From assembly GCA_964016885.1 (NCBI GenBank), contig OZ024740.1:222456001-222520000 (forward strand): a stretch of DNA of 64,000 nucleotides, written 5' to 3'. A model generated the notes under the pieces. That model ran no database searches and was not told where the DNA came from. It saw only the letters and a list, made by a program, of their open reading frames with translations. Both the position numbers and the translations under genes were made by a program. Origin of the DNA: Eledone cirrhosa (taxonomy: Eukaryota). Positions 8,501-60,569 of the stretch are shown one piece after another. How positions within the stretch are numbered: position 1 is the first letter of the stretch; every line of letters starts with the position of its first letter.

Positions 8501-8661
8501 AAGTTTGGTAGAAATATCCAATGGTAAGAGCACTTGCTCAATAGGACAAGTTAAGCATAATTAGTTACAACAGTGACATTATACAGGTACTTAAATTTCG
8601 TTGTGTTATACATTTAGAAGAATGGTATTAGTATAGATATTATTATAACAGTTGTTGTTGA

Positions 8662-11279: not shown

Positions 11280-12024
11280 GGCTGCACATGGTGATTCGCT
11301 TTCTCAGCAAAATGCTCGTGGTACCAGCATAAAGATGAAGCTGGTGACCTGGGGCGGTGTCTGAAAGAGTAAAATCTACCGCGGCTGCGCGAGCGCGATC
11401 GAGCACCACGAGATGCCTTCAGCTTCTGTAGCACCAGGGTGAGTTCCAGATTGGCTTTCTGCATAACCATTATAGCTGCGCTGTCTGCATGACTTGCCGC
11501 ACAGGTGGCATGGCCAGGTGTGGCCTGAGTTGGGTGGGAAACGGTGGCAAGAGCCTCGCTGCCTCCAGCACTGGTAACCTCAAAATCTTTGTCCGCAGAG
11601 GTGGCCAGTTGGTCCACAGAACATGTATCCCTAATGGGGGCCAAAATTGCTCGAACGTTGGTCGGTAGCCGTGAGAAAAACAACTGCTTCAACAACGCAG
11701 TCTCTGCTGCCGACCTCTCTGTTAGGTCTTTCATTCGACGTAAGAGGTTCGATGGAGTGCTATCCCCGATATGCTCCAAATGGACCAGAGCTCTAAAGCA
11801 TTTCTCGGCGGACTGTGCAGTCCGGCCGAGTATCTCAGCCTTCAACGGCTGGTAAGTAGCGTCAGTCGGTGTCTCCAATACAAGATCCTTAATAATTGGG
11901 AGAAGTGCCGGAGGAAAGGCATTAAGGACGAGGGGACGTTGTTAGCCTCGAAAAATGCTTCCATTTGAGCGAACCTTAACTTCACGTCGCCCGTGCAAGT
12001 AGGGAGAATAGAATGAGATGCCAT
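11237..12024 (-). pseudogene. Gypsy gag, frameshifted
   Basis: FAQMEAFF, YQPLKAEIL, PSNLLRRM, FFSRLP, RSRSRSR and terminal CWYH..F...A....PC motif. Confidence 0.8.
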
Positions 12025-12493
12025 TGGTGCAATCTCAGTAAGCGGCCAAAATGTGTCCCCGCTAAAACAAATACCTCGAACACGATGGAAAAAGAAAATA
12101 AATCCACTTGTTTATTTGTCTGTCAAACAATCGGATAGGAAAACAAATGCATCCGAAATAATGCGTCAGGGAGCGACTAATCAAACAATGGCATTAACAA
12201 TACATTTACAGCGAACCTAAAACAAAAACTAACATGGCACACAGTTTCGCGCCAAAAAAACTGATGAAGAAGAAAGCCGCCATCTTGACATCTTCACAAA
12301 TTGGAGCAAGGGAAAGAAGGAAAAATGTATTGACATAATTGTTCTTAACAAAAAGTTCAGTTTTCTCTTCCTTATGTGATCGGTAAATGAAGCCATATCA
12401 GAATAAAAAAGCGGGTTGTTTTCTGGGGTTTTTTATAATACAATTTCGTATTTTTATTTTCGAATTTTTTTTAAAAGGAACATTTAGTTCCCT

Positions 12494-12507
12494 CGTCGGG
12501 GTCACCA
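12494..12507 (-). promoter_or_regulatory. primer binding site, tRNA-Trp type
   Basis: Minus strand TGGTGACCCCGACG, 1 nt downstream of the LTR end. Confidence 0.85.
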
Positions 12508-12508
12508 C

Positions 12509-12924
12509 TTTAGAAGAATGGTATTAGTATAGATGTTATTATAACAGTTGTTGTTGAAAGAACAAGAATGGCTTTTTGGTTTATATACAAATGTTTACTT
12601 CACTGAAGTCAAAATAGAACAATAAACATATTACCAATGAGTTACGAAAGTTGTTGATATTATCTGTGTAGTTGGTTCATGGGGCTGTTAGTGAGAGAGT
12701 TGCTCTTAACATGTTCACTGGAGTAGGTGAACTAAAAGTCGGAAAAGGCAAAGTTGTATCTTGTTTCCCTGACTGCGGGCCGTGTAAGAGAGGAAGAGGT
12801 CTCTCACTGTCCCAATGAGGACCTAACTCTAATTATTTCTCAGTTCTCGACGCTAGTGGTCCCCACAGTCCCCAAGGGACGTAACTCTCATTACTTCTGG
12901 ATTTCACCGCTAGGGGTCACTGCA
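12509..12924 (-). repeat. 5' LTR (416 bp)
   Basis: Starts TGCAG and abuts the PBS; its last 49 bp recur at 8613-8661 with one mismatch; bounded by the TSD. Confidence 0.85.
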
Positions 12925-14170: not shown

Positions 14171-14212
<42 letters not shown>

Positions 14213-14247
14213 CTAGACTACGTGACCCAACGGGTTATGAGTAGTCT

Positions 14248-14493
14248 AGTACAGGTAATCAAAGCGTGTATACATTTTTCGGGGACATCATATATATATA
14301 CCGGGGTCCCTAAAAATGTATACACCATTCTAATATATATATTGCTTGTACAGGTAATCAAAGTGTGTATACATTTTTCCGGGACACCATATATATATAT
14401 ATATATACCGGTGTCCCTAAAAATGTATACACCATTCTAATATATATATTGCCTGTACAGGTAATCAAAGTGTGTATACATTTTTCGGGGACA

Positions 14494-14530
<37 letters not shown>

Positions 14531-14826
14531 GGGGTTCCTAAAAATGTATACACCATTCTAATATATATATTGCCTGTACAAGTAATCAAAATGTGTATAC
14601 ATTTTTCGGGGACACCATATATATATATATATATACCGGTGTCCCTAAAAATGTATACACCATTCTAATATATATATTGCCTGTCCAGGTAATCAAAGTG
14701 TGTATACATTTTTCGGGGACACCATATATATATATATATACTGGGGTCCCTAAAAATGTATACACCATTCTAATATATATATTGCCTGTACAGGTAATCA
14801 AAGTGTGTATACATTTTTCGGGGACA

Positions 14827-14870
<44 letters not shown>

Positions 14871-15502
14871 TGGGGTCCCTAAAAATGTATACACCATTCT
14901 AATATATATATTGCCTGTACAGATAATCAAAGTGTGTATACATTTTTCGGGGACACCATATATATATATATATATACCGGGGTCCCTAAAAATGTATACA
15001 CCATTCTAATATATATATTGCCTGTACAGGTAATCAAAGTGTGTATACATTTTTCGGGGACACCATATATATATATACCGGGGTCCCTAAAAATGTATAC
15101 ACCATTCTAATATATATATTGCCTGTACAGGTAATCAAAGTGTGTATACATTTTTCGGGGACACCATATATATATATACCGGTGTCCCTAAAAATGTATA
15201 CACCATTCTAATTTCTAATATATATATTGCCTGTACAGGTAATCAAAGTGTGTATACATTTTTCGGGGACACCATATATAGATATATATATATATATATA
15301 TATATATACCGGGGTCCCTAAAAATATATACACCATTCTAATATATATATATTGCCTGTACACATAATCAAAGTGTGTATACATTTTTCGGGGACACCAT
15401 ATATATATATATATACCGGGGGTCCCTAAAAATGTATACACCATTCTAATATATATATTGCCTGTACAGGTAATCACAGTGTGTATACATTTTTCGGGGA
15501 CA

Positions 15503-15539
<37 letters not shown>

Positions 15540-15623
15540 GGGGTCCCTAAAAATGTATACACCATTCTAATATATATATTGCCTGTACAGGTAATCAAAG
15601 TGTGTATACATTTTTCGGGGACA

Positions 15624-15664
<41 letters not shown>

Positions 15665-15862
15665 GGTGTCCCTAAAAATGTATACACCATTCTAATATAT
15701 ATATTGCCTGTACAGGTAATCAAAGTTTGTATACATTTTTCGGGGACACTATATATATATATATATTAATACCGGGGTCCCTAAAAATGTATACACCATC
15801 CTAACAAATAATGCATGTAAAGGCAATCAAAGTGGGTATACATTTTTTGGGGGACAACCTGT
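14248..15862. repeat. tandem array of about 14.5 Tc1/mariner-type MITE units (~90 bp) separated by variable (TA)n
   Basis: Unit ccggggtccctaaaaatgtatacac...gtgtatacatttttcggggacacca has imperfect ~25-bp terminal inverted repeats and is flanked by TA. Confidence 0.85.
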
Positions 15863-15951
15863 ATATACACAAATATGAACATATATATAGAGAGAACGTG
15901 TGTGCAAGCAAGCAAGCAAGCAAGCAACCAATCAAGATCAGAGTTTTAGTA

Positions 15952-16241: not shown

Positions 16242-16295
<54 letters not shown>

Positions 16296-16299
<4 letters not shown>

Positions 16300-16342
16300 C
16301 TGATGATTTCTAAAGAATGAAACAGTTCTAGTCCTGTAGAAT
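16296..16342 (+). ncRNA. type I hammerhead ribozyme motif
   Basis: ATTC-CTGATGA-T TTC taaa GAA T-GAAA-CAG ttctagtc CTG-TA-GAAT: intact core, stems I-III pair, GUA triplet. Confidence 0.7.
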
Positions 16343-16548
16343 CTCATCTATATTAAAATGTTTATACTCTGCTATGTATTGAGTACCTTACTTACTGTGG
16401 TTACCTCCGATTCAACCCGGAATAACTTACCTATATATATATATATATATATGCCACTTTGCAAATGTTATCATGAGAAAATGAATTCAGGTGATGATAT
16501 TTAAAAATTTTCTTTCTATGACTTTTCTCAATTTTGTCTGTCTGTCTT

Positions 16549-23116: not shown

Positions 23117-23398
23117 AATGAGCAACGATGGTTGCTAGACACTGTACGGCTTAATTCGGGATGTTTGTTTGTTTACAAACACACCGAGCATTATAATAAG
23201 TGTTTGGTGAATCATACGTACATAAATATATGTGTGCATGTATGTATATATATATACATACTACTGTACGTCTGTATGTACGTATACATACATACTTATA
23301 TTTAAGTAACAGCCATACTAAGAGTGAGAAATGAAATTTTGTTTCATTTTTTCCGTTTATATATATATAGTTGTGTTATAAACAACATAAGGCAATTA

Positions 23399-23459
23399 TT
23401 TCATTTACCAGTGGTTTCTTAAAAGCAAATAAATTTTGCTTTCAATCATCAGAATGAAA
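23399..23459 (-). ncRNA. hammerhead ribozyme motif (inverted copy)
   Basis: Reverse complement of 23491-23551, differing in loop 2; core intact. Confidence 0.8.
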
Positions 23460-23490
23460 AAATCCAATGTCAATAAATACACCAGGATTT

Positions 23491-23551
23491 TTTCATTCTG
23501 ATGATTGAAAGCAAAAATTGTTTGCTTTTAAGAAACCACTGGTAAATGAAA
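23491..23551 (+). ncRNA. type I hammerhead ribozyme motif
   Basis: TTTCATT-CTGATGA-TTGAAAGCAAA aattg TTTGCTTTTAA-GAAA-CCACTGG-TA-AATGAAA. Confidence 0.82.
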
Positions 23552-23647
23552 TAATTGCCTTATGTTGTTTATTACATAACTATTAAGCTCTGTAACCTAC
23601 ATAGAGCACTCTTTTTTCCTGGACCTTTCCGACGGAATTACTTCATT

Positions 23648-25238: not shown

Positions 25239-26571
25239 TCCTGTTCATCATAGTCCTGCAGGCAATAACGGAGGAATTTAAGACCGGATGCCCATGGGAA
25301 CTCCTGTATGCTGATGACCTCGCACTCATAGCTGAATCTATGATAGAACTAGAGAATAAATTCCAAACCTGGAAGCAGGGACTAGAGAGAAAGGGTCTCA
25401 AAGTCAACATGACAAAGACTAAGGTCCTTGTAAGTAGACGAGAAAACAGAACCCAGATCCCCTCAGGGAATGGCCTTGCTCAGTATGTAGGAAAGGTGTA
25501 GGTAGGAACTCCATTCTCTGCCCCAAATGCAAACAATGGGTACACAAGACATGTAGCGGGATCTCAGGAAGCTTAATTAAGAATGTAGGCTTCATATGTA
25601 GCAGCTGTGCTGAAACAGCAAGCAGCAAACAGCCACAGGAAACAAGTACCACCAATCTCTGGGAGGGCCCTGTAGAAACAGTAGACAGCTTCTGCTACCT
25701 AGGTGACCAAATTAGCAATGGAGGTGGGTGTTCAGAAAGTACAATAACTAGGGTAAGAACGGGATGGAAGAAGTTTAGGGAACTACTACCACTGCTAGCT
25801 GCAAAAGGCTTCTCCCTCAGAATGAAAGGCAGACTGTATGATGCGTGTATCCGAACAGCGATGTTGCATGGTAGTGAGACCTGGGCGCTGAAGGTGGAAG
25901 ACTTACGTAGATTAGAGAGAAACGAAGCCTGCATGCTCCGATGGATGTGTAACAGTAATATACGTGAACGACAAAGCATAAATGAATTGAGAGAGAGACT
26001 GAGCATAAGAGGAATCAAATGCTGTGTGCAGGAGAGGCGGTTGCACTGGTATGGACATGTGATGCGTATGAAGGATGACAGCTGCATAAAAAGGTGCAGA
26101 GCACTAGAAGTTGATGGAAACCGTGGAGTGGGGAGACCCAAGATGACCTGGGATGAGGTGATAAAAGCCGACCTTACCCAATTACACCTCTCAAAGACAA
26201 TGACACACGACCGTGACTTCTGGCATCACGCAGTAATACAGAGTACCCCACCTCCCATGGGTACATGCTGAAGCATATAATCAATATGCCCCCACGCCCC
26301 CCACCGCAAGGTGGTCGTGGAGGTGCCACGGCAAAAAAGCACCCAGCCCACACTGTAAAGTGGACGTGTAGGCACCACGAAAAAGCACCCAGCACTCACT
26401 GTAAATGAGGTTGGTGTTAGGAAGGGCATCCAGCTGTAGAAATCAAGCCAGATCAGTTCCTGTATGAGCAAGGCATGGTCAGCCGACCAGACACTGCACA
26501 CAACAGGACAACCCATCTAACCCATGCTAGCGTGGAAGAACGGACATAAAACAGTGATGATGTGATGATGA
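25239..26571 (+). mobile_element. RTE-clade LINE, 5'-truncated (1.3 kb)
   Basis: Begins in RT (LFIIVLQAITEEFKTGCPWELLYADD), closely similar to 7192-8500, ends in a (GAT)n tail. Confidence 0.95.
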
Positions 26572-26820: not shown

Positions 26821-27112
26821 AAAATAATTAAGTCATACGAAACGAGATGTTTTTTTTTACCTTAATTTATTCATATATCCTGGTGTTTCGAGAAATATCT
26901 CTTCTTCCAAGGAAAATAAAGGAATAATTATGGTGACCAAAGTGGCTTTCTATGCTAGCTGAAGTGGTTTTATTCTGGTATAGCAAACCACATCGGACAC
27001 TGGAAGAGTTCCTTTATTTTCTTTCGAAGAAAAGATATTAATCTCAAAATATCAGGACATAAGAATAAATTAATGTAAAAAAGCACCCCTTGTTTATTAT
27101 GACTTAATTTTT
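26821..27112. repeat. old imperfect inverted repeat (~105-bp arms)
   Basis: 26821-26925 pairs with 27010-27112 (aattaagtcata/tatgacttaatt, aaaataaaggaa/ttcctttatttt). Confidence 0.7.
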
Positions 27113-27727
27113 TTTTTATACCATATACAATGCTGCAAGCAAACTACAAATTCCTTCTTCACTTATTACATTGTTGCTTAAGCCCAAGTTCTTCATTGTT
27201 GTGATTTTTGTTAAGATTTTACATTTATTGTTTATTTTTCAGAATTAATTGATAAATATAATTTGTTTTAGCAATTTTCATGCAGGTATTCAGTGTTGGG
27301 TACTACATATATGGCAGGGACTCAGGTTTCAAAAGATTAAATTTCTGATATTTTTGAATAACTTGTCATTTTATTTGTAACATTTATATCTATCAAATAT
27401 CATTTACAAATCTTTGGCTGACTCAAGGCTACAGTAGAGAGCACCAGACCAAGGTTCAGTCCATCGAGATCACATCTGAAACTACATATATGTAAAGTAA
27501 GCTTCTTAAGCTTCTTAAGAAGAAACTATTAATGATACTTCTATAAAATAATAGAAAAATAGTGGCCATCACCCCTTGATGCATATATGAAGTAGCACAA
27601 AATTCATTCTAGCTTATAATGTCTGTTAAATAAGTTGGGGTGTCAAAAAAACTTTGCTCCCAGATCCAAGGAGTTCTTACTACACCACTGCTACTAAAAT
27701 ATAGCATTCATACTCACATTAATATTT

Positions 27728-27926: not shown

Positions 27927-28129
27927 TTGCATAGTCTATGTAGAGGTTTTCTAGACTTTCTAACTGAAGATCATCAAGCTGATATTCAAGATTCTGAAAT
28001 GTTTTCTTTAATTCTTGGAATACAAAAATTGTTTTCACCAAAATTGTTTTCAGTAGCCACAAATGAAACAATATATTTTAATATACTATATATATATATA
28101 GTATCAATAATATTAGTATATATTAATAC

Positions 28130-28162
<33 letters not shown>

Positions 28163-28285
28163 GAATATAGACATAGAATATTCGAAAATATTCTGTATGT
28201 TTATAATAAACATTTTGAAGACCTAATCGCTATAGAATAGAATACGTCACGTATTACAATTAGATTCTCGATAAAAGCAAGGGAA

Positions 28286-29878
28286 GTAATCTACGCGTTT
28301 CATTCTCGTTAGAAATCATCAGGACTACATATCCAGTGCTTTTATCGAGAATGACACAGCTAGAGACTTATAGAATACTTAGCTGTGTACAGGAACTGGT
28401 TTGAAAGAGCGGTTGCCGGTCCGGCAGAAATTAGAAATTGGAATAAATGCTCTGAAATAGCGATATATATGTGAATATAGACATAGAATATTCGAAAATA
28501 TTCTGTATGTTTATAATAAACATTTTGAAGACCTAATCGCTATAGAATAGAATACGTCACGTATTACAATTAGATTCTCGATAAAAGCAAGGGAAGTAAT
28601 CTACGCGTTTCATTCTCGTTAGAAATCATCAGGACTACATATCCAGTGCTTTTATCGAGAATGACACAGCTAGAGACTTATAGAATACTTAGCTGTGTAC
28701 AGGAACTGGTTTGAAAGAGCGGTTGCCGGTCCGGCAGAAATTAGAAATTGGAATAAATGCTCTGAAATAGCGATATATATGTGAATATAGACATAGAATA
28801 TTCGAAAATATTCTGTATGTTTATAATAAACATTTTGAAGACCTAATCGCTATAGAATAGAATACGTCACGTATTACAATTAGATTCTCGATAAAAGCAA
28901 GGGAAGTAATCTACGCGTTTCATTCTCGTTAGAAATCATCAGGACTACATATCCAGTGCTTTTATCGAGAATGACACAGCTAGAGACTTATAGAATACTT
29001 AGCTGTGTACAGGAACTGGTTTGAAAGAGCGGTTGCCGGTCCGGCAGAAATTAGAAATTGGAATAAATGCTCTGAAATAGCGATATATATGTGAATATAG
29101 ACATAGAATATTCGAAAATATTCTGTATGTTTATAATAAACATTTTGAAGACCTAATCGCTATAGAATAGAATACGTCACGTATTACAATTAGATTCTCG
29201 ATAAAAGCAAGGGAAGTAATCTACGCGTTTCATTCTCGTTAGAAATCATCAGGACTACATATCCAGTGCTTTTATCGAGAATGACACAGCTAGAGACTTA
29301 TAGAATACTTAGCTGTGTACAGGAACTGGTTTGAAAGAGCGGTTGCCGGTCCGGCAGAAATTAGAAATTGGAATAAATGCTCTGAAATAGCGATATATAT
29401 GTGAATATAGACATAGAATATTCGAAAATATTCTGTATGTTTATAATAAACATTTTGAAGACCTAATCGCTATAGAATAGAATACGTCACGTATTACAAT
29501 TAGATTCTCGATAAAAGCAAGGGAAGTAATCTACGCGTTTCATTCTCGTTAGAAATCATCAGGACTACATATCCAGTGCTTTTATCGAGAATGACACAGC
29601 TAGAGACTTATAGAATACTTAGCTGTGTAGAGGAACTGGTTTGAAAGAGCGGTTGCCGGTCCGGCAGAAATTAGAAATTGGAATAAATGCTCTGAAATAG
29701 CGATATATATGTGAATATAGACATAGAATATTCGAAAATATTCTGTATGTTTATAATAAACATTTTGAAGACCTAATCGCTATAGAATAGAATACGTCAC
29801 GTATTACAATTAGATTCTCGATAAAAGCAAGGGAAGTAATCTACGCGTTTCATTCTCGTTAGAAATCATCAGGACTAC
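28286..29878 (-). ncRNA. six tandem type I hammerhead ribozymes (cores 28286-28328, 28596-28638, 28906-28948, 29216-29258, 29526-29568, 29836-29878)
   Basis: Minus strand GTAGTC-CTGATGA-T TTCT aacg AGAA T-GAAA-CGCG-TA-GATTAC. Confidence 0.88.
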
Positions 29879-30079
29879 ATATCCAGTGCTTTTATCGACA
29901 TACAGAATATTTTCGAATATTCTATGTCTATATTCACATATATATCGCTATTTCAGAGCATTTATTCCAATTTCTAATTTCTGCCGGACCGGCAACCGCT
30001 CTTTCAAACCAGTTCCTGTACACAGCTAAGTATTCTATAAGTCTCTAGCTGTGTCATTCTCGATAAAAGCACTGGATAT

Positions 30080-30742
30080 GTAGTCCTGATGATTTCTAAC
30101 GAGAATGAAACGCGTAGATTACTTCCCTTGCTTTTATCGAGAATCTAATTGTAATACGTGACGTATTCTATTCTATAGCGATTAGGTCTTCAAAATGTTT
30201 ATTATAAACATACAGAATATTTTCGAATATTCTATGTCTATATTCACATATATATCGCTATTTCAGAGCATTTATTCCAATTTCTAATTTCTGCCGGACC
30301 GGCAACCGCTCTTTCAAACCAGTTCCTGTACACAGCTAAGTATTCTATAAGTCTCTAGCTGTGTCATTCTCGATAAAAGCACTGGATATGTTGTCCTGAT
30401 GATTTCTAACGAGAATGAAACGCGTAGATTACTTCCCTTGCTTTTATCGAGAATCTAATTGTAATACGTGACGTATTCTATTCTATAGCGATTAGGTCTT
30501 CAAAATGTTTATTATAAACATACAGAATATTTTCGAATATTCTATGTCTATATTCACATATATATCGCTATTTCAGAGCATTTATTCCAATTTCTAATTT
30601 CTGCCGGACCGGCAACCGCTCTTTCAAACCAGTTCCTGTACACAGCTAAGTATTCTATAAGTCTCTAGCTGTGTCATTCTCGATAAAAGCACTGGATATG
30701 TAGTCCTGATGATTTCTAACGAGAATGAAACGCGTAGATTAC
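30080..30742 (+). ncRNA. three tandem type I hammerhead ribozymes (cores 30080-30122, 30390-30432, 30700-30742)
   Basis: Same motif on the plus strand; predicted cleavage after 30116, 30426 and 30736; middle copy has a stem I A>T change at 30392. Confidence 0.88.
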
Positions 30743-30895
30743 TTCCCTTGCTTTTATCGAGAATCTAATTGTAATACGTGACGTATTCTATTCTATAGCG
30801 ATTAGGTCTTCAAAATGTTTATTATAAACATACAGAATATTTTCGAATATTCTATGTCTATATTCACATATATATCGCTATTTCAGAGCATTTAT

Positions 30896-30954
<59 letters not shown>

Positions 30955-30961
30955 TATATAC

Positions 30962-31012
<51 letters not shown>

Positions 31013-31019
31013 TATATAC

Positions 31020-31090
<71 letters not shown>

Positions 31091-31459
31091 GTATCAACAG
31101 TATTAGTATATATTGATACTATATGCATATATATATTCAGAAAACAATGAAGTTTCATTTACATGTAGTTAGATGTTTATTGTGTTAGTGTATATATATA
31201 TATATATCTGTAACTTTTTAACCCCATGATGAAGTTTTGTTTGCAGAAACTTGTGTTAGTTTCAAAATGCATCGATTCTTTGGTGCTTTTTATACATAGT
31301 ATATAACAGCTCTGCATGAAACCCATCACATTGAGCTTCTAACCTTCTGGTACTAAACTTAGTAATAATAATATTATTATTATCACTACTATATATATGT
31401 ATATATATATATAAAATAAAATATATAAGTCAAATGTTGAAAATTTGGCTTCGTTTATT

Positions 31460-31514
31460 ACTGCTATATATATTTCAGTGACAGCCATTTTGGGCTGTGA
31501 CCTCTTCAGGCAGT
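31460..31514 (-). ncRNA. hammerhead ribozyme in the inverted Penelope terminal repeat
   Basis: ACTGC-CTGAAGA-GGTCACAGCC caaaat GGCTGTCACT-GAAA-TATATA-TA-GCAGT. Confidence 0.8.
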
Positions 31515-32284
31515 CCGAATTAGTGTGGTAGAGACAAGTACACATGTTGTTGAGGTGTTTAACTTTCTCAATACTCTGATATGCCCAGTTCCTGGTTGGG
31601 TTGTTATTTCACTGAGGAACTGGAATCATATGAATTTAAACAAATGAATTTCAGCGTCAGAGGACATCTTCTCCTCTCATTGGTCAGTTGTGAGAACATT
31701 CCTCAGTCAGAAGTCTATAGATATTCGTTCTGAGGTGAGGCAATCTGTAGTGGTTGTTATTGTTGTTGTTAAGTACATCTGACCTCTACTCTTATGTTCG
31801 TAGTGGTGTTGGTGTTGGAGTCAGCTCAAAAAAATGATAAAGTGGTAGAAGGAATAAGATGGTAAAGGAACAAAATAAAATAATCAAATAAAATGTGTGT
31901 GTGTTATACCCAATCTCAATGTTAGAAAGATTTATAAGGTCACTCCTCCCATTGGTCAGTTTTGAGAGCATTCCTCAGTCAAAAGTCTATAGAAATTCTT
32001 TCTGGGGTGAGGTTCCTTGTAGTGTTTGTTTTTGCTATTGTTAAGTACATCTGACCTCTACCCTTATTTTGGTAGTGGTGTTGGTGTTGTGGTCAGCCTA
32101 TGTCTTGCTGCGGCTGACATTTAGAAGTATCTGTGTGTGTTTGTTCATCCATCCTGCCACCATTTCTCGTGGTGGTGGTGATGGGCGGGGGGGGGGGGGG
32201 GTCTGCCATGTATATGAAGAAATAGAAGGCATTAAAATTAAGAAAAAAGAAAAATATATAATAAATAGAAAATAAATGAAAAAT

Positions 32285-32495
32285 TAATGAAAAATGAAAA
32301 ACGAAAAATGAAAAATGAAAAATGAAAAATGAAAAATGAAAAATGAAAAATGAAAAATGAAAAATGAAAAATGAAAAATGAAAAATGAAAAATGAAAAAT
32401 GAAAAATGAAAAATGAAAAATGAAAAATGAAAAATGAAAAATGAAAAATGAAAAATGAAAAATGAAAAATGAAAATTGAAAAATAAAAATGAAAA
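32285..32495. repeat. (TGAAAA)n microsatellite within the PLE 3' UTR; shorter counterpart at ~35495-35560
   Basis: Direct inspection. Confidence 0.95.
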
Positions 32496-33300
32496 TTCAA
32501 ATAAAATAAAATGTGTGTGTGTGCTATAACCAGAAAGTTGTTGGATAAAGTGGTAGGAGGAACAAGATGGTAAAAGAATAAAACGAAATAAGATAATCAA
32601 ATAAAATGTGTGTGTGTGTTATAACCAATCTCAACTTAAATAGAAGGCAATAAAGTGAAGAAAACGGAAAACAAGTGAAAATCAAGTAGAATAAAATGTG
32701 TGTGTGTTATAAAGATCTTGCCCGCATTAGAAAGGCTGTGTCAGAATCAATCTCTAGGCTATCATGGTGTCTGCTCAGCTTGGGTGGGTCTCTATGGCTT
32801 GAGGGGAGTTCCTCACCTATGGTGTTGTTACTGCCCATATAGCTTGAGGGATGTCTGGCCGAGTGGTGTCTACATGTTCTGGAGAAGTCCCTATAGCTTG
32901 AGGGGAGTTCACTTCTCAGTGTGTTGCTACTGTCCATATAGCTTGAGGAAGGTGTCTGCATGTCCCGAAGAAATCGGTTCTGAGTTTTATCAGGCGGCTT
33001 CCACCTCTTAGAATCTCGAGGGTCTCATTCAGACATAGTTTGCATATGCCAGATCACCCTTTATCGGGTGGTACTTTTCTAATTATGGACCAGGCCAGAG
33101 AGTGCGGGATCCTGTCCAGCTTAAGCTTGCAGATCAGGTCGGAAAGAGACGTACTTTTCCTTTTGGTCTCCTTATTGAAGGAACGGCGATGGTTTTACCA
33201 ACGGTCTTTAAAGCTCGTTGATGTGGCTCCTATGTAGAGGTGTTCGGTGTTGGGGGTTTTAACCCTAGATCCGTATATTCGGTTCTTCTTAAGGCATTCA

Positions 33301-34995
33301 TTACGATGGGCTTCAGCACAGGTAACGGACATGATTGGGCTCTTCCTGCTGAAGCAGATAAAAGATGAAATCCCTGTCTGGGCCGCGGATTATATCGTGA
33401 CGATGCTCTCTTCACAGTATATGACCACAGCACCACTATGTTGGAGGGAATGAGGAGGCGTATTCGCCATTTCTTTATGAACCAGGGGGCTCAGTATCGA
33501 ACTAGTCCCAAATAGAAAGGTAGTTAACTTCCTAGACACCACCCTAAACCTGAACACCGAGTAATACTACCCCTACCACAAGCCCAACTTGAAACTTTTG
33601 TATCTTAACGCCAAGTCAAACCACCCTAGATCCATAACCAAGGCCGTGGTTAAGAGTGTCTCGGACAGGATCTCCAGCCTGTCCGCAAATAAGGAAATCT
33701 TCGATAACAACGCGGAATATTACAACGCAGCTCTAAATAAGGCGGCATATGGCCAAAATATAACATATAGTCCGAGACGCCGGGATGGGGATGGCCCAAC
33801 GGACACCCACATTCGCGTTTTCCGGGAGGGGGCGCACCCTAACAATACAGGCAGAACAGAAACAAATAAGCACCATGAGCCCGACACCACCACACGGGCG
33901 ATGGTGACGAGTACGCTTAACCATAAGAAGAAACCCAATATGAGTAGCAGTCTCAGGGGTGATGCTGACCACCCCGGGCCCGACGACCCCAACCGCAGGA
34001 CACGTGTGTGTGTGGAGGGGTGGGTGGGTGGGTGGGGAGGGTAACGGGGGACCACCCCACAGTGGATCTCCCAGCGCGGGCAACGACCACCCCACATATT
34101 CGGGCTGTGAAGACAGCAAAACGCATAGCGCCCAAAGGGGAACCAAGAATGCTGGAACCACCAGCTACCCAACAACTCTCCAATAACTCACGACGCCCCC
34201 AATCCACCCATATAGGAGTAGACGCAGAAAAATCACGTGGTACAATCCACCCTACTCAGCGGCCGTAAAGAACAGCTTGGCCCGATCATTCTTTGGAGCA
34301 CTTGATAAATGCTTCCCGAGGGACCATAGATATCACAAGATCTTCAACAGACACACTGTGAAGCTCTCGTATTCCACCACGAGAAAACTGCCCCAACACA
34401 TAGCTAGCATCAACAGGAGTAGGCTTAAAAACCACACACAAACAGAAGATGGCAATATAAGCACCCAGCAGAACCACGTGGAAGGAGGGAAGGAGAGACC
34501 CAGTGCCCACCCAAGAAACTCAAACAGTCCCGGGGACGCCCCACCATGCTCGGGGAAAGAGCACCATGTAACACGTAACGGGAACCCTACACTAGGCACG
34601 CAGAGTTCGACCACCCTCTGCAACTGCAGAAACCCGAATCATGCCCCCTTAGTGATGAATGCCTTAAGAAGAACCTAATATACGGATGTAGGGTTAAAAC
34701 CCCCAACTCCGAACACCTCTACATAGAAGTCACATCAACGAGCTTTAAAGACCGTTGGTATAACCACCACCATTCCTTCAATAAGGAGACCAAAAGGAAA
34801 AGTACGGCTCTTTCCGACCTGATCTGGAAGCTTAAGCTGGACAGGACCCCCGTACTCTCTGGCCTGGTCCATAATTAGGAAAGTACCATCCGATAAATGG
34901 GGATCTGGCATATGCAAACTCTGTCTGAATGAGATTCTAAGAGGTGGAAGCCGCCTGATAAACCTCAGAACCGACTTCTTTGGGACATGCAGACA
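33301..34995 (+). pseudogene. PLE RT C-terminal half, linker and GIY-YIG endonuclease, frameshifted
   Basis: ORFs 33589-34044 and 34277-34678 plus flanking frames carry the motifs listed for the element. Confidence 0.85.
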
Positions 34996-36334
34996 CCTCA
35001 GTGCCGGGACCTTCCTCAAGCTATATGGACAGTAGCAACACACTGAGATGTGAATTCCTCTCAAGCTATAACGACTTCTCCAGAACATGTAGACACCTCC
35101 CGGCCAAACCCCCCTCAAGCTATATGGGCAGTAACAACACCATAGGTTGGGATCTCCCCTCAAGCCATAGGAACCCACCCAGGCTGAGCAGACACCATGA
35201 TAGTCTAGAGATTGATTCTGACACAGCCTTTCTAATTTGGCCAACATCTTTATAACAGACACGCATTTTATTCTACTTCATTTGTCACTCGTTTTCTGTT
35301 TTCTTCACTTTATTGCCTTCTATTTAAGTTGAGATTGGTTATAACACACACACATTTCATTTGATTATCTTATTTCGTTTTATTCTTTTACCATCTTGTT
35401 CCTCCTACCACTTTATCCAACAACTTTCTGGTTATAGCACACACACACATTTTATTTTATTTGAATTTTCATTATTTTTCAATTTTTATTTACATTTTTC
35501 ATTTTTCATTTTTCATTTTTCATTTTTCATTTTTCATTTTTCATTTTTCATTTTTCATTAATTTTTCATTTATTTCCTATTTATTATATATTTTCTTTTT
35601 TCTTAATTTTAATGCCTTCTATTTCTTCATATACATTGCAGACCCCCCCCCCTCCCGCAACACCCCACCTCCACCACCACCACGAGAAATGGTGGCAGGA
35701 TGGATCAAGAAACACACACAGATACTTCTAAATTTCAGCAGCAGCAAGACATAGGCTGACCACAACACCAACACCACTACCAAAATAAGGGTAGAGGTCA
35801 GATGTACTTAACAATAGCAAAAACAAACACTACAAGGAACCTCACCCCAGAAAGAATTTCTATAGACTTTTGACTGAGGAATGCTCTCAAAACTGACCAA
35901 TGGGAGGGTGACCTTACAAATCTTTCTAACATTGAGATTGGGTATAACACACACATTTTATTTGATTATTTTATTTTGTTCCTTTACCATCTTATTCCTT
36001 CTATGACTTTATCATTTTTTTTAGCTGACTCCAACACCAACACCACTACCAACATAAGAGTAGAGGTCAGATGTACTTAACAATAACAAGAACAATCACT
36101 ACAGATTGCCTCGCCTCAGAACAAATTTCTATAGACTTCTGACTGAGAAATGTTCTCACAACTGACCAATGAGAGGAGAAGATGTCCTCTGATGCTGAAA
36201 TTCATTTGTTTAAATTCTTATGATTCCAGTTCCTCAGAGAAATAACAACCCAACCAGGAACTGGGCATATCAGAGTATTGAGAAAGTTAAACATCTCAAC
36301 AACATGTGTACTCGTCTCTACCACACTAATTCGG

Positions 36335-36389
36335 ACTGCTTGAAGAGGTGACAGCCAAAGATGGCTGTCACCGAAATATATATAGCAGT
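36335..36389 (+). ncRNA. hammerhead ribozyme in the Penelope 3' terminal region (core C3>T)
   Basis: ACTGC-TTGAAGA-GGTGACAGCC aaagat GGCTGTCACC-GAAA-TATATA-TA-GCAGT. Confidence 0.75.
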
Positions 36390-36555
36390 TATAAACGAAG
36401 CCAAATTTTAAACATTTGACTTATTTATTTTATTTTACATTACTCCGGAGTAACGAAACCAACCTGCGCACTTCGTCGAGTGCTCCAATCTGCATACTGA
36501 GGTGTGGTATACAACCAACATATACTCAAAATCTATATATAGTTATATATATATC

Positions 36556-37385
36556 AGATAGGGTGTGGTAAGATACCTGGTGGACCATTACACACCAGAG
36601 TACTAGATACCTGTGGTAGTAGAGTGAGTAATATGAACAGATTCAGGACCCCAACGGCTGAGCTCCGGCTGTTTTGACAGCTAGATCCAAACTAAAGTGT
36701 CAGTATTTCAACGGTGGGAATCTAGCTGAACCTATCAAGGGGTACAGTCCATATATGGGCATACAGTCAAAGCAAAAAAATCTTAAAGATCTATTGTTTT
36801 TTTTTCTCCAGGAGTGGTTAGTGATCTGGGGAGGGAGGAGGGTTACCTAAGTTCAAATGGCTCGTCTAGTCCTGTTAAATGTCGTGAATTTTATTTATTA
36901 CATTCTTAACGGCGAGGGGCTAGAAAGGCCAAAATGCAAGAGGAAAAGGTTAGTAGACTAACTGACCTGAAAGTGCCAGGCCAGTCAGGCACACACTCAT
37001 GCTATTAAGAGAGATTTTATCCTTATTAACTATTTCCAATTTGTAGAAATGTTATTTTGCTAAACATCAATTCATGAGGGAAAAAAAAACCCAACGCGAA
37101 AAAATATAAATTTATATTTTCTATCTTTGGTATTTATTTTGCCTCTTAAACCAGCCATTTGATCTAAGGAACCCACCCCTCTCCCCGATTACTGACCACT
37201 CCTGGAGAAATAAAAAAAAACAATAAACCTTTAACATTTTTTTGTTTTGACTCTATGCCCATATATGAACTGTACCCCTTGATATTTTCAGCTAGATTCT
37301 CATATTCGAATACTGCCACATTAGTTTCAATCTAGCTGTCAAAACAGCCGGAGCTCAGCTGTCGAGGTCCTGAATCTTTTCATAT
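36556..37385 (-). mobile_element. fold-back element (~230-bp inverted arms plus ~75-bp one-sided tail) with decayed HHR-like motif
   Basis: Arms ~36630-36860 and ~37155-37385; the tail is homologous to 51656-51718. Confidence 0.7.
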
Positions 37386-40300
37386 ATCATCATCATCATC
37401 ATCCCCGGTTTATGTCCATTCTTCCATGCTAGCATGGGTTAGACGGGTTGTCCTGTTGTGGGCAATGTCAGGTCGGGTAACCTTCTCTTGCTCATAAGGG
37501 AAATGATTTTGGCTTGATTTCTACAGCTGGATGCCTTTCCTAACACCAACCTTATTTTTACTGTGAGTGCTTGGTGCTTTTTTTCCGTGGTGCCTAAACG
37601 TCCACTTTACAGTGGGGGCTGGGGGCTTTTTTGCCATGACACCTCATTTTGCTTTTATCACCTCATCCCAGGTCTTCTTGAGTCTCCCCACTCCGCGGTT
37701 TCCATCGACTTCTAGTGCTCTGCAGCTTTTTATGTAGCTATCATCCTTCATACGCATCACATGTCCATACCAACGCAACCGCCTCTCTTGCACACAGCAT
37801 TTGATTCCTCTTATGCTCAGTCTCTCTCTCAATTCATTTATGCTTTGCCGTTCGCGTATATTACTATTACACCTCCATCGGAGCATGGAGGCCTCGTTTC
37901 TTTCTAATCTACGTAAGTCTTCCACAGACAGCGCCCAGGTCTCACTACGATGTAACATTGCTGTTTGTATACACGCCTTTCATTTTGAGGGAAAAGCCTT
38001 TTGCAGCTAGAAGTGGCAGTAGCTCCTTGAACTTCTTCCATCCCGTTCTTACCCTACTTATTGTACTTTCCGAACACCCACCTCCGCTGCTAATTCGGTC
38101 ACCTAGGTAGCAGAAGCTGTCTACTGTTTCTATAGAGCATTCCCAGAGTTTGGTGGTACTTGTTTCCTATGGCTGTTTGCTGCTTGCTGTCCCAGCACAG
38201 CTGCTACATGTGAAGCCTACATTCTTAGTTAAGCTTCCTGAGATCCCGCTACATCTCTTGTGTACCCATTGTTTGCATTTGGGGCAGAGAATGGAGTTCC
38301 TACCTACACCTTTCCTACATACTGAGCAAGGCCATTTCCCTGAGGGGATCTGGGTTCTGTTTTCTCATCTACTTACAAGGACCTTAGTCTTTGTCATGTT
38401 GACTTTGAGACCCTTTCTTTCTAGTCCCTGCTTCCAAGTTTGGAATTTCTTCTCTAGTTCTACCATAGATTCAGCTTTAAGTGTGAGGTCATCTGCATAC
38501 AGGAGTTCCCATGGGCATCCGGTCTTAAACTCCTCCGTTATTGCCTGTAGGACTATGATGAACAGGAGAGGGCTAAGAACAGAGCCCTGGTGGACACCGA
38601 CCTGTATGCTAAATTCCTCGCTATAGCCATTGCTAATCCTAACTTTGCTGAGGGTTCCCTTATACATGGCTTGTACAGCTTTCACAAGCCATTCATCTAC
38701 TAGTGCTCTAAGAGACAACCCGATTATAGCACGGGGAACTCTGTCAAAGACTTTCTCGAGATCAATGAATGCCAGGTAGAGAGGCTTACTTTTAACTAGT
38801 TTTACCTGGTCCCTAATCAACTGTGCTATAACTCTTTCTGTTACTTTCATGACCTGGTCCATCTGCTTTATACCTCTATAGTTTCCTCTATCTAGTGCAT
38901 CACCTTTACCCTTGTAGCAGTTGACAATGATGCTACTGCACCAATCTTTTGGTATGACACCTTCTAGTATTACCTGGTTGACAATACGTGTGGTTATGGT
39001 GTGACCTACCGACCCAGATGCCTTCAGCATCTTGGCAGCTATACTCGATAGACTGGTTGCCTTCCCCGTCTTCATATCTTTGATTGTCTTACTTACTACG
39101 CTGCTGCTGACTTGTACTGCTAGCCCCTCTATAGGGTCTACTTGGGGTAGGGTCTCTTTTTCCCATTCATTCTCCTCATTTAGTAATCTATCATAATGTC
39201 TCTTCCACGCATCTTTCTTCTCAGCACTTGTGAGGGCAAGCCCACCTTTATCATTCCGGATACACCTCTCTCCAATGACATCACAATTCTCTCTGACACA
39301 CTGCCTTGCAATCTTGAACAGCTCATGTTTCTGGTCCTTACGTTGCAAAACATGCTTGAATTTTCTATCCTCTGCTTCCCTCCAGGCTAAGTATACTTGT
39401 CGCCTAACTTCCCTCCTGGTCTCTATGTAATGCACACTGCTTCCTCCATTCTTCCATTCTTTCCATGCCTGTCTCTTGGCCTTAACTGCCTCATCTACCT
39501 TATTGTTCCACCACCAAGTCACTGTCCTCCTGCCTGTGGTCTTACTCCAGCCACAGATCTCATCCGTCGCCTTTAGTAAGTTACTTTTAGGAAATCCCAG
39601 TGCTCTTCTACATTGAATGTCTCTATCTGTTCTTCTTTACTGTCATAGGAGTTGAGTAAAATATCTTTAAATCTGTTACTGGCTGAGGGGTCTTTCAGTT
39701 TCCAGATCTTTCTTCTCCAGGTTGACTTCTGTTTCCAGGTTCTAGTTCTGACCGTGAGGTCGCTGACAACTAAGCTATATTGGGAGGTACATTCCTCACA
39801 AGTGAAGGCTTTTGTGCTTACAACCGTCCATCTGTCACGTCCTCTGATGAGGATACAATCTATCTGACTAGAATGCTCCCCTGATCTATAGGTAATCAGA
39901 TGGTTGTCAGGTTTTTTGAAGTTTGTGTTACATATCGACATGTCATTGGCATCACAGAATTCTAGAAGCCTGAGGCCTTCTTCATTTCATGTGCCAACAC
40001 CATGGCCTCCATAGACTCTATAGAAGCTGTCACGGTGTTTACCTACGTGTCCATTAAAATCTCCTGCAATGATTAGGAAGTCATTGTCGTTTGTTAGAGC
40101 AATAGTGTGCCTTAGGGACTCGTAAAACATGTCCTTAAGTTCGTCTGGCAACCCCGACTGGGTGCGTAAGCTGATATTATTGTGGTAATTGTTTTATTCA
40201 GGACTAGTCTGAGTTTAATGATTCTGCATTCACCCTGTTCACTGAGATTACCTTATCTACCCACTTGTCAGCTAGTAGGATACCTACACCACCCATCCCA

Positions 40301-44632: not shown

Positions 44633-44664
44633 TAAATATATATATATATATATAGAGAGAGAGA

Positions 44665-44990
44665 TTTTGAGTATATGTTGGTTGTTTACCGACACCTCAG
44701 TATGCAGATTGGAGCACTCAACAAAGTATGGAGTTTGGTTTGTTCACTCTGGAGTAATGTAAAATAATTAAATCAAATATGTAAAATTTGACTTTGTTTA
44801 TTATAAATTATAGATTTACTGCTATATATATTTCGGTGACAGCCATCATTGGCTGTGACCTCTTCAGGCAGTCCAATTGGTGTGGTAGAGACAGGTAGAC
44901 ATGTTGTTGAAGTGTGTTTTACTCCGTCAATACATCGATATGTCCAGCTCCTGGTTGTGTTGTTATTCCTCTGAGGAACTGGAATCATAT
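44665..44990 (-). mobile_element. solo ~325-bp copy of the Penelope terminal region with hammerhead ribozyme (44818-44872)
   Basis: Homologous to 36220-36535; ACTGC-CTGAAGA-GGTCACAGCCA atga TGGCTGTCACC-GAAA-TATATA-TA-GCAGT; flanked by (TA)n. Confidence 0.85.
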
Positions 44991-46029: not shown

Positions 46030-47190
46030 TAGAATAGATACCCATTTAGTTTAGACATAGTTTCCAGTCTACACTTCTGTCCCCACCTCCACAGCCATCA
46101 ACTTAATCATGGAAAATATCATCGCCTATACCGTCCTCAGTTGCAGACATCTGTGAATTGCTCTCTATCATCATGTGTAACACCTTTGTCCAGTTTGAGG
46201 GCTCCATATACAAACAAATCTCAGGACTTCTAATGGGATCGAGTCATTCAGGCCTGCTGATCATCATGTACATGGACCAGTTGGGGTGCACAGTACTCAC
46301 CACCTGGTGCTCTTGCTCCTTCTTCTCCAGGTACATAGATGACATCCTTATGCTAACTTCATCACGTAAAGAAGCCATTAAGATCTACAACATTTTTGAA
46401 AACATTGACGCACGCATAAAACCTGAGGTTGATCATCCAGAAACCACTGGATCCCTCTTTCTACTCATTTTTACATTAAGAATCACAGAGGAGGGCTCCA
46501 TATATATATATATACCAAATTGTACAGGAAGGATGCCTGCAGAGATATTCTTGTACACTAAAACTCAGCCCTTCCCTACAGAACAGCCTATATAGGGAAT
46601 AAGATCTCCCAGATATGCAACAGATGAAGCAAGGGTAGTGATAGTCATGCCAGCATAGTGGAATTCCAAAGATTTCTCACCAAAAACGGCTACATTACTT
46701 TTCTCACCAAAAACTGAAATGCCACGGCAGCAGCATATAAAATAACAAAAGGACATGTGCCCCCAAGGTTAACATATGCTACCTAAACCTGTCACATTCC
46801 AATGAAAAGATGACAGCTGCCATCAGACAAGCCAACCATAGGGAGGGACTGAATATATGCCTGGCACGTTTGGGACCCTCATTGAGGAGGCTGCTCCACA
46901 GACTCCAACCAATATACAGCTGCATATTCACACTTCCAAATTGCAATATCAACAACGCAGAAGTATGCATAAGAGTGAAACTTATATAGCTCCTCATACA
47001 TTCAAAGAACCATAAGGAGTCTACATATATGGATCAAGGAACATCTGATAATAAGAGCCTCTTGCATTAAAAACCATCTTGACAGATGCTGAACTCAAGA
47101 TATTGAGGTCCCTATAGGATGACTGAAAGGAATTTGGGAAATTTAAGGATTAAGGAAGTCATTTTAATCAACCAAATAAAATCAAAGATA
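46030..47190 (+). mobile_element. degenerate Penelope-like RT relic (different family)
   Basis: FSLDIV, FVQFEGSIYKQISGLLMGS, SRYIDDILML in ORF 46158-46595; downstream extent approximate. Confidence 0.75.
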
Positions 47191-51527: not shown

Positions 51528-51718
51528 ATAGGAACGAGTAGGACCCCAACGGCTGAGCTCAAGCCGTTTCGACGGCTAATTCGGGACTAAATTTTAGTCC
51601 AGAATTAGCCGTTGAAACGGCTTGAGCTTAGCTGACGGGGTCCTACTCATTCCTATTACCCACTCTACTACCCTTTGGTGTGTTATGGTCCACCTGGTTC
51701 CTTACCACATTTCCTCTG
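51528..51718 (+). mobile_element. short fold-back element (~60-bp arms plus tail), same family as 36556-37385
   Basis: ataggaacgagtaggacccc.../...ggggtcctactcattcctat hairpin; shared tail; in (TA)n. Confidence 0.75.
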
Positions 51719-54329: not shown

Positions 54330-54545
54330 TCTATATAAAATAGAAATAGAATCTTTCGCCTTTATTTCTGATTAAAGAAATTTTAGCCTGATATTGGGGT
54401 TTAGAACCCTCCAATGTACGTCAATACTCACTATTTTCCATTTCTTAGAGGGTTCTAAACCCCAATATCAGGCTAAAATTCTTTTAGTCAAAAATACAGC
54501 AAAAGCTTCTATTTTTCTATTTATATTTTCAAACTCACTTGCTTT
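54330..54545. repeat. inverted repeat, ~80-bp arms
   Basis: aattttagcctgatattggggtttagaaccctc / gagggttctaaaccccaatatcaggctaaaatt. Confidence 0.8.

Positions 54546-60561: not shown

Positions 60562-60569
<8 letters not shown>

What the first reader, a model, noticed from the sequence alone, without database searches (positions are those of the whole stretch)
30056..30144. Ribozyme design: palindromic minimal stem III (dimer switch) plus a perfect 16-bp stem I extension
Seen: stem III is only A-CGCG-T, a palindrome too short to fold stably in cis. Stem I (GTAGTC/GATTAC) continues through a TAT/T internal loop and GGA/TCC into a perfect 16-bp helix ATTCTCGATAAAAGCA/TGCTTTTATCGAGAAT. Known: PLE-associated HHRs with short palindromic stem III cleave as dimers, and an internal loop in stem I docking on loop 2 is how natural type I HHRs work at low Mg2+. 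Inference: cleavage would be licensed in multimeric transcripts and suppressed in the monomeric circle.
Basis: partly seen in the sequence, partly recalled or inferred. Interest (0 to 1): 0.75.

Follow-up and report, generated by a model that had tools for sequence, protein, structure and literature searches.

The report
Dimer-type hammerhead in animal retrozyme array
A 310-base repeat, present about nine times in two back-to-back rows in what is likely an animal genome, carries in each copy a hammerhead self-cutting RNA motif that is predicted to cut mainly when two copies pair; it is likely a new family of a known kind of jumping element (retrozyme), not a new mechanism.

Summary
30056-30144 is a complete type I hammerhead with a one-pair stem III around a palindrome and a perfect 16-bp stem I extension; neither arises in shuffles. 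The motif is one of nine copies in a 310-bp unit arranged as two head-to-head arms (5.6 and 3.2 units, 2 substitutions in 2,749 bp) inside (TA)n, beside a Hydra-clade-like Penelope relic with the same inverted layout. Folding predicts an active fraction of about 1e-6 for monomer and circle against about 0.07 for a two-copy transcript, whose best fold is the double hammerhead. That regulation is stated almost word for word in Cervera and de la Pena 2014 and was measured for axolotl retrozymes in 2020. The 16-bp helix does not itself favour dimers; it likely clamps the ends of the released monomer. No cleavage or expression is shown. Verdict: new family of metazoan non-LTR retrozymes; modest interest, mainly for the insertion geometry.

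The parts
29898..30901 (+). Right arm: 3.2 tandem copies of the 310-bp unit, 3 hammerheads (30056-30144, 30366-30454, 30676-30764)
   Evidence: 1004 bp, 1 substitution (30392)
28153..29897 (-). Left arm: 5.6 tandem copies in the opposite orientation, 6 hammerheads (28264-28352, 28574-28662, 28884-28972, 29194-29282, 29504-29592, and one cut at the junction, 29814-29898)
   Evidence: 1745 bp, 1 substitution (29630)
29897..29898 (.). Head-to-head junction of the two arms (5' ends joined, one shared base; the arms meet at different phases of the unit, 163 nt apart)
30056..30071 (+). 5' arm of the perfect 16-bp stem I extension
   Evidence: longest inverted repeat in 300 shuffles 13 bp
30072..30079 (+). 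2x2 C/U loop (5' side), 3-bp helix, and 3-nt strand of loop 1
30080..30085 (+). Stem I 5' strand (6 bp with one G.U)
30086..30092 (+). Catalytic core box C3-A9
30093..30106 (+). Helix II (U.U mismatch at 10.1/11.1 plus 3 pairs) and six-base loop 2 (30097-30102); natural variants at 30093 (restores a Watson-Crick pair) and 30101
30107..30116 (+). Core G12-A14, palindromic stem III hexamer (30110-30115) and cleavage nucleotide A17 (30116); predicted cut 30116|30117
30117..30128 (+). Stem I 3' strand, unpaired U1.7 (30123), 3-bp helix and 3' side of the 2x2 loop
30129..30144 (+). 3' arm of the 16-bp extension
30054..30108 (+). Alternative hairpin (30054-30062 pairs with 30100-30108) that is the best fold before the 3' arm is transcribed; strong only in the window's allele
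   Evidence: -24.1 kcal/mol, 4 of 500 shuffles as good; variants 63 and 82 of 500
30145..30365 (+). 221-nt spacer folding into several hairpins; closed by the 16-bp helix in monomer and circle
   Evidence: circle -67.8 kcal/mol, 0 of 100 shuffles as good
28071..28152 (.). AT-rich / (TA)n target abutting the 3' end of the left arm; the last 8-9 bases of the arm are themselves TA repeats (possible priming homology)
30902..31090 (.). (TA)n microsatellite abutting the 3' end of the right arm

Best explanation
The 89 bases are a complete type I hammerhead motif repeated in each 310-bp unit of a likely non-LTR retrozyme, predicted to cut efficiently only when the palindromes of two copies pair, with the long stem I likely holding together the two ends of the released monomer so that it would be ligated into a circle. 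Steps. (1, shown) Core, three stems, tandem repetition, head-to-head arms, (TA)n flanks. (2, predicted by folding) One copy or the circle cannot close stem III; two copies form a 6-bp stem III, and this forces stem I to form between copies: the core of copy n+1 cuts the site of copy n. (3, inferred) In that register the 25 pairs of the extended stem I join the 5' end of a monomer to its own 3' part, while neighbours are held by only 6 bp, so a pre-clamped monomer is released for an RtcB-type ligase. (4, inferred) A Penelope-like reverse transcriptase/endonuclease, probably of the (TA)n-targeting Hydra clade, primes on both ends of a cut in (TA)n at internal sites of the RNA (139 and 165 nt past a cleavage site) and copies a circular or multimeric template several times round, giving two near-identical arms joined head to head.
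For: Motif and 16-bp helix beyond chance. G.U pair in stem I favours RNA of this strand over a DNA cruciform. Unconstrained best fold of a natural two-copy stretch is the full double hammerhead, inter-copy stem III pair probabilities 0.89-0.98. Active fraction 1.6e-6 single, 1.2e-6 circle, 0.067 for one site in the dimer. In a control replacing the tetraloop, a full inter-copy stem III appeared for 4 of 16 palindromes (the natural one among them) and 0 of 48 sampled non-palindromes. Unit size, 35% GC and tandem layout match non-LTR retrozymes. Axolotl motifs with a one-pair helix III or a U.U mismatch cleave poorly as monomers and well as dimers. In run X1, 746 contigs lie on the unit (443 at >=99%), with a head-to-tail joint and TA-repeat loose ends; the only two variants above 5% there fall in helix II/loop 2, one restoring the 10.1-11.1 pair, none in core, palindrome or stem I. 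A Penelope-like relic at 31409-36440 has the same inverted layout and its relative P0001 carries the Hydra RWK, DKT and CxCx5C motifs; inverted 5' copies, (TA)n targets and internal priming are PLE traits.
Against: No cleavage, circle or transcript is shown. Rfam gives no hit at its cut-off (HH9 15.8 of 52 bits). The swapped stem I was also the best fold for all 48 non-palindromic controls, so the swap itself is partly a trait of the energy model. In a three-copy fold copies 1 and 3 pair and the middle copy stays closed. The local 25-bp hairpin (-31 kcal/mol) can form 221 nt before the next copy exists; crude barriers to swap are 20-39 kcal/mol. The energy model ignores the loop 1-loop 2 contact, whose U1.7 and terminal loop A are present. 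Only 1 of 9 predicted Xenopus retrozyme dimers cleaved in vitro. The unit shares no sequence with the neighbouring PLE ends beyond the core. Only 3 positions of the unit vary, so invariance of the palindrome is weak evidence. Read-through of this locus from either flank would give long double-stranded RNA (350 cross-junction pairs in 1 kb).
Confidence: 0.68

Rival explanations
1. Extended single hammerhead: the loop 1-loop 2 contact and the long stem I stabilise the one-pair stem III enough for each copy to cut on its own, as reported for newt satellite 2 extended hammerheads (recalled; titles only seen); the palindrome is a secondary route.
For: Canonical dimensions are kept (6-bp helix I, 4-position helix II, U1.7, six-base loop 2 ending in A). 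The cis hairpin forms first during transcription. Most invertebrate retrozymes cleave as monomers. Single- and double-hammerhead routes and an extended stem I are both discussed for cricket and amphibian satellites.
Against: Those invertebrate motifs have a stable helix III; here it is one A-U pair plus a U.U mismatch in helix II. Predicted active fraction 1.6e-6 (1.0e-5 with both natural variants). The axolotl motif with all tertiary contacts and the same stem III type cut only 6% as monomer.
Confidence: 0.15
2. Weak or locked ribozyme riding in a PLE-mobilised repeat: the window's allele (U.U mismatch) is trapped in the cis hairpin, barely cuts in any context, and spreads through uncut multimeric transcripts.
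For: High crude barriers; a better-paired allele exists in the family (21% of summed depth in X1, and in both trace contigs); hammerhead cleavage was not needed for insertion by a PLE protein in vitro; 8 of 9 Xenopus dimers did not cut; insertion ends do not coincide with the cleavage site.
Against: Core, palindrome and stem I are intact in 8 of 9 copies; the U.U allele is the majority in X1 and has just been copied nine times; an axolotl family with a U.U mismatch is active and makes circles.
Confidence: 0.12
3. DNA-level satellite or assembly fold-back: the array grew by unequal crossing-over and a chance inversion, or the inversion is a read artefact; the 16-bp repeat is a DNA inverted repeat.
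For: Local DNA amplification is proposed for retrozyme arrays; long inverted repeats can be assembly artefacts (own knowledge); the junction was not tested with reads.
Against: The arms meet at different unit phases and run into different flanks; three other head-to-head hammerhead-bearing inversions lie in the same window; no target duplication flanks the 16-bp arms; both 3' ends stop on (TA)n.
Confidence: 0.05

Closest known systems
Metazoan non-LTR retrozymes (Cervera and de la Pena 2020, PMC7229834; main text read, parts 1-4 of 6; supplement not readable)
   Same: Type I hammerhead in every unit of a non-coding tandem repeat of about 300 bp, GC below 45%, self-paired predicted circle, PLEs in the same genome.
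   Different: New sequence family (no look-alike in this scan's notes; no nucleotide database of retrozymes could be searched). Two head-to-head arms in (TA)n, not described in the text read. Expression and circles not shown here.
Axolotl/newt hammerheads HHR_Amex1 and HHR_Amex2 (PMC7229834)
   Same: One-pair helix III with palindromic tetraloop (as Amex1); U.U mismatch at the base of helix II (as Amex2); predicted dimer dependence.
   Different: Both weakening traits occur in one motif, and the genome is probably an aquatic invertebrate (Hydra-clade-like PLE), where most tested motifs cut as monomers.
Minimal hammerheads of Penelope-like elements (Cervera and de la Pena 2014, PMC4209133, parts 1-2 of 4 read; Lunse et al. 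2017 not held, not read)
   Same: Type I topology, palindromic stem III, dimer model.
   Different: PLE motifs have helix II of 7-8 bp, helix I of 4-5 bp and a poorly defined loop 1; such motifs occur elsewhere in this window (31509, 44867, 60757/60814), whereas this one has canonical dimensions and loop contacts.
Hydra-clade Penelope-like elements (Craig et al. 2021, PMC8557442; passages and section 11 read)
   Same: Insertion into (TA)n, inverted 5'-truncated copy, hammerheads near the 3' end.
   Different: The 310-bp unit encodes no protein and shares no detectable sequence with the neighbouring PLE's terminal repeat.
Rfam Hammerhead_HH9 (RF02275, clan CL00010)
   Same: Core boxes, 6-bp helix I, internal loop 1, six-base loop 2 ending in A align position by position.
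   Different: Score 15.8 bits against a cut-off of 52; no helix III stem; U.U at 10.1/11.1.

Membership tests
Type I hammerhead ribozyme | Core boxes CUGANGA, GAAA and UH in order, open end in helix I | tested here: met
Type I hammerhead ribozyme | Helices I, II and III can form | tested here: met
   I: 6 bp; II: 3 pairs plus U.U; III: 1 pair in cis, 6 bp in a dimer
Type I hammerhead ribozyme | Paired 10.1-11.1 (usually G-C) | tested here: not met
   U.U in all 9 window copies; A-U in a natural variant; a U.U mismatch is tolerated in axolotl HHR_Amex2, so it is not exclusionary
Type I hammerhead ribozyme | Loop 1-loop 2 contact nucleotides (unpaired U1.7, terminal loop 2 A) | tested here: met
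   U30123 and A30102 present; the contact itself is not shown
Type I hammerhead ribozyme | Self-cleavage | not testable with these tools
   no assay possible
Rfam hammerhead families | Score at or above the gathering cut-off | tested here: not met
Non-LTR retrozyme | Type I hammerhead in each unit of a 150-450 bp tandem repeat | tested here: met
   9 motifs in 8.9 units of 310 bp
Non-LTR retrozyme | Non-coding, GC below 45-50%, no LTR | tested here: met
   GC 0.345; no ORF of 150 aa or more in the array; PBS/PPT not searched for
Non-LTR retrozyme | Stable self-paired circular monomer | tested here: met
   z -4.8, 0 of 100 shuffles; much of it is due to stem I
Non-LTR retrozyme | Multi-copy dispersed family in the genome | tested here: inconclusive
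   no genome held; 746 variant contigs at very high depth in run X1, whose relation to the window is unknown
Non-LTR retrozyme | Expressed as linear and circular monomers | not testable with these tools
   no run on record as RNA was offered
Minimal PLE hammerhead | Long helix II (7-8 bp), short helix I (4-5 bp), no loop contacts, inside a pLTR | tested here: not met
   no similarity to the neighbouring pLTR
Autonomous Penelope-like element | RT plus GIY-YIG open reading frame | tested here: not met
   none in the array; a broken one lies 2.5 kb away

The most novel reading that the evidence does not exclude
This locus is a snapshot of PLE-driven rolling-circle retrotransposition of a retrozyme circle: both ends of a break in (TA)n primed internally on a 310-nt template and copied it 5.6 and 3.2 times. 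The ribozyme is a register switch: an early alternative hairpin hides the first copy's 5' arm, so every active site is built from two neighbours, releases a monomer already clamped by 25 bp, and leaves a circle that cannot be activated even by another circle because closed rings cannot swap such long strands. It would also be an amphibian-type, strictly dimer-dependent retrozyme in an invertebrate.
Probability: 0.25. Interest if true: 0.55.

Novelty: new member of a known kind. Interest (0 to 1): 0.27.

Why it matters
The dimer switch itself is established, so the ribozyme design adds little. The locus is useful as a test case: who mobilises animal retrozymes is still argued from co-occurrence and pLTR similarity, and how their circles avoid self-cutting is left open in the 2020 paper. 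A very young insertion with PLE-type inverted arms in (TA)n, and a natural pair of alleles differing at 10.1, make both questions testable with simple transcription assays and a genome-wide census.

Tried and rejected
Rfam at gathering cut-off and at E<=10 on the array found no hammerhead; only the 101-nt search gave a weak HH9 match. No whole genome is held, so copy number and empty sites could not be checked. No RNA holder listed; this is no evidence on expression. The 20 holder runs under 18 organism labels in 17 studies were first read as possible horizontal spread and then set aside: of 4 runs laid (3 of the 20 holders plus X23), X16 and X20 held one contig each at depth 5.1 and 3.3, the X20 contig runs exactly from one GANTC site of the unit to the next with foreign sequence on both sides (a proximity-ligation-type chimera), and raw DNA of organism B gave 0 of 12.8 million reads (about 1 in 100 of the run; not a test of absence). 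The early alternative hairpin is significant only for the window's allele (4 of 500 shuffles; variants 63 and 82 of 500), so it is not claimed as a selected feature. My first idea that the 30101 variant restores the docking adenosine was dropped after one search placed that adenosine at 30102. Barrier estimates are crude upper bounds and decide nothing. A MITE reading of the 16-bp arms was rejected (no flanking duplication). The bacterial promoter scan is irrelevant and at chance level. Pfam did not recognise the PLE fragments at 33565-34848 and gave only a weak GIY-YIG hit for 1 of 4 relatives. Earlier scan notes: nothing by place or sequence; 8 listed by words concern other genomes and did not bear on this one. 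Literature searches showed no paper on head-to-head retrozyme arrays or on the register argument, but the library lacks most older subscription papers.

Full report
What is there. The 89 bases at 30056-30144 hold a complete type I hammerhead: stem I (6 bp, one G.U), the two core boxes, helix II, a six-base palindrome at stem III and a predicted cut after GUA between 30116 and 30117. Neither feature is chance: 0 of 20,000 shuffles of the unit gave such a motif and the longest inverted repeat in 300 shuffles was 13 bp. Rfam does not report it at its cut-offs; a narrow search aligns it weakly to Hammerhead_HH9 (15.8 bits, E 0.1). That alignment flags the U.U mismatch at 10.1/11.1 and places loop 2 at six bases (30097-30102) ending in A. 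An unpaired U1.7 pairing with the last A of loop 2 is the contact described for full-length hammerheads (PMC11875169, passages); both bases are present.

Context. The motif is one of nine in a 310-bp unit. The array has two arms, 28153-29897 on the minus strand (5.6 units) and 29898-30901 on the plus strand (3.2 units), joined at their 5' ends with one shared base and ending on TA repeats at both 3' ends; the 2,749 bp differ from one unit sequence at only 2 places. The arms meet at different phases of the unit and continue into different flanks, which argues against a read fold-back, though no read was laid across the junction. The 3' ends lie 139 and 165 nt past the last cleavage site, so copying did not start at a ribozyme-cut end. 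The window is AT- and microsatellite-rich and full of broken retroelements. At 31409-36440 lies a broken Penelope-like element with the same inverted layout and its own minimal hammerhead; its best relative, P0001 (65% identity over 71% of a 68-aa query, 4 hits among 9 candidates), shows the RWK, DKT and CxCx5C motifs that define the Hydra clade, which inserts into (TA)n and is reported from aquatic invertebrates (PMC8557442, section 11). Two more head-to-head hammerhead pairs lie at 23452/23498 and 60757/60814. All 8 of 8 terminal motifs examined lie within 213 nt upstream of a TA run, against 19% of random positions within 260 nt; these motifs are not independent.

Folding. One copy, or the circular monomer, forms stem I fully but not the active core: predicted active fractions 1.6e-6 and 1.2e-6. 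A natural two-copy stretch folds, without constraints, into the double hammerhead with a 6-bp stem III between copies; with 20 nt of upstream sequence the fraction with one active site is 0.067. A full inter-copy stem III appeared for 4 of 16 palindromic tetraloops, the natural one included, and for 0 of 48 sampled non-palindromes; the swap of stem I, however, was the best fold in all 64, so it is partly a trait of the model. Geometry requires that when stem III forms between copies stem I does too: the core of copy n+1 acts on the site of copy n. In that register the extended stem I joins the two ends of the future monomer and is the same helix that closes the circle. The 16-bp helix is therefore an end clamp, energetically neutral between cis and swapped folds, and a possible kinetic brake: the cis hairpin is worth -31 kcal/mol and crude barriers to swap are 20-39 kcal/mol. 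An alternative hairpin that hides the 5' arm until the 3' arm is almost finished could set the swapped register, but it is strong only in the window's allele. With three copies the model pairs copies 1 and 3, so neighbours are not the only predicted partners. None of these calculations includes tertiary contacts.

Public runs. Twenty of 24 listed runs hold half or more of the sampled words, under 18 organism labels; none is on record as RNA. Four runs were laid on one unit. X1 gave 746 contigs (443 at 99% or more, 50 below 90%), very high summed depth (not a copy number), a head-to-tail joint and TA-repeat loose ends. Its two variants above 5% are T30093A (21% of summed depth), which makes 10.1-11.1 a Watson-Crick pair, and G30101A (54%) in loop 2; no variant at that level touches core, palindrome or stem I, but only three positions vary at all. 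With both variants the predicted active fraction in the dimer rises to 0.21. X16 and X20 held a single low-depth contig each, both with both variants; the X20 contig is bounded by the unit's only GANTC site and foreign sequence, as in a proximity-ligation chimera; X23 gave 0 of 12,836,656 reads. I read these as traces, not as spread across species.

Comparison with what is known. The 2020 paper (PMC7229834, parts 1-4 of 6; supplement not readable, and it may hold closer relatives) defines non-LTR retrozymes, finds 6% and 22% monomer cleavage but efficient dimer cleavage for two axolotl motifs (one with a one-pair palindromic helix III, one with a U.U mismatch), and RtcB-dependent circularisation. 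Palindromic stem III loops in invertebrates are noted in PMC3088659 (supplement legend), extended stem I in crickets and amphibians in PMC2837043 (passages), the dimer model in PMC6155905, PMC6765202 and PMC7761336 (passages). A 2026 preprint (10.64898/2026.07.22.740005, parts 1-3 of 5) links retrozymes to PLE terminal repeats and found cleavage in 1 of 9 dimers tested. A PLE protein primes internally at AT-rich targets and does not need hammerhead cleavage in vitro (PMC11167929, passages). Inverted 5' copies are a PLE hallmark (PMC8557442, passages). Forster 1988, Lunse 2017 and the newt extended-hammerhead papers were not read (reference titles only).

Verdict. It works like the newt/axolotl dimer-dependent hammerhead and meets every sequence-level feature of a non-LTR retrozyme that could be tested; activity, expression and genome-wide copy number could not be tested. 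What is mildly new is the family itself, two weakening traits in one motif in a probable invertebrate, and a very young head-to-head insertion in (TA)n that points to PLE machinery; my searches showed no description of the last for retrozymes, within a library that lacks most older subscription papers. Interest 0.27.

Noticed in passing
window 31409-36440: Broken Hydra-clade-like Penelope element: RT thumb, linker and endonuclease region on + at about 33380-35050 (stops and frameshifts), with an inverted partial copy at 31409-33310; minimal hammerhead at 31509 (-), its + counterpart near 36340 has an altered first core base; related terminal copy at 44642-44990 with a hammerhead at 44867 (-).
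   Followed up: partly
window 23367-23583: Short palindromic element with two hammerheads head to head (23452 -, 23498 +): 7-bp helix I, 11-bp helix II, near-palindromic stem III; TA repeats nearby.
   Followed up: no
window 60562-61012: Palindromic element between TA runs with two minimal hammerheads head to head (60757 -, 60814 +), stem III not palindromic.
   Followed up: no
window 16290-16380: Degenerate relative of the flagged hammerhead right after a TA run: same core and same U.U-based helix II, shorter loop 2, stems I and III lost.
   Followed up: partly
window 28071-28150 and 31064-31136: The flanks of the array share an AT-rich direct repeat of about 35-80 bp with several mismatches, older than the insertion, so not its target duplication.
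   Followed up: partly
window 14174-15889: Tandem array of a roughly 100-bp self-complementary unit separated by variable TA runs; no hammerhead found by the scan.
   Followed up: no
window 8613-12557: Broken Ty3/gypsy-type LTR retrotransposon on - (RNase H and integrase zinc-finger Pfam hits; short direct repeat at 8613 and 12509) inserted in an RTE-like LINE.
   Followed up: no
window 5822-8501, 25239-26571, 37387-39888: Three decayed copies of an RTE-like LINE, 89-94% alike (RVT_1 hit).
   Followed up: no
window 46107-46595: Fragment of another reverse transcriptase that looks Penelope-like (RVT_1 E 7.6e-7).
   Followed up: no
run X1, window 30116 to 30162: One low-depth contig (5.4) joins exactly at the predicted cleavage nucleotide 30116 to 30162 with five other letters between: possibly a copy of a cut and rejoined RNA; single record, hint only.
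   Followed up: no
window 26821-27114, 37076-37145, 51528-51656, 54333-54526, 55629-55899: Further self-inverted elements without a hammerhead in my scan.
   Followed up: no
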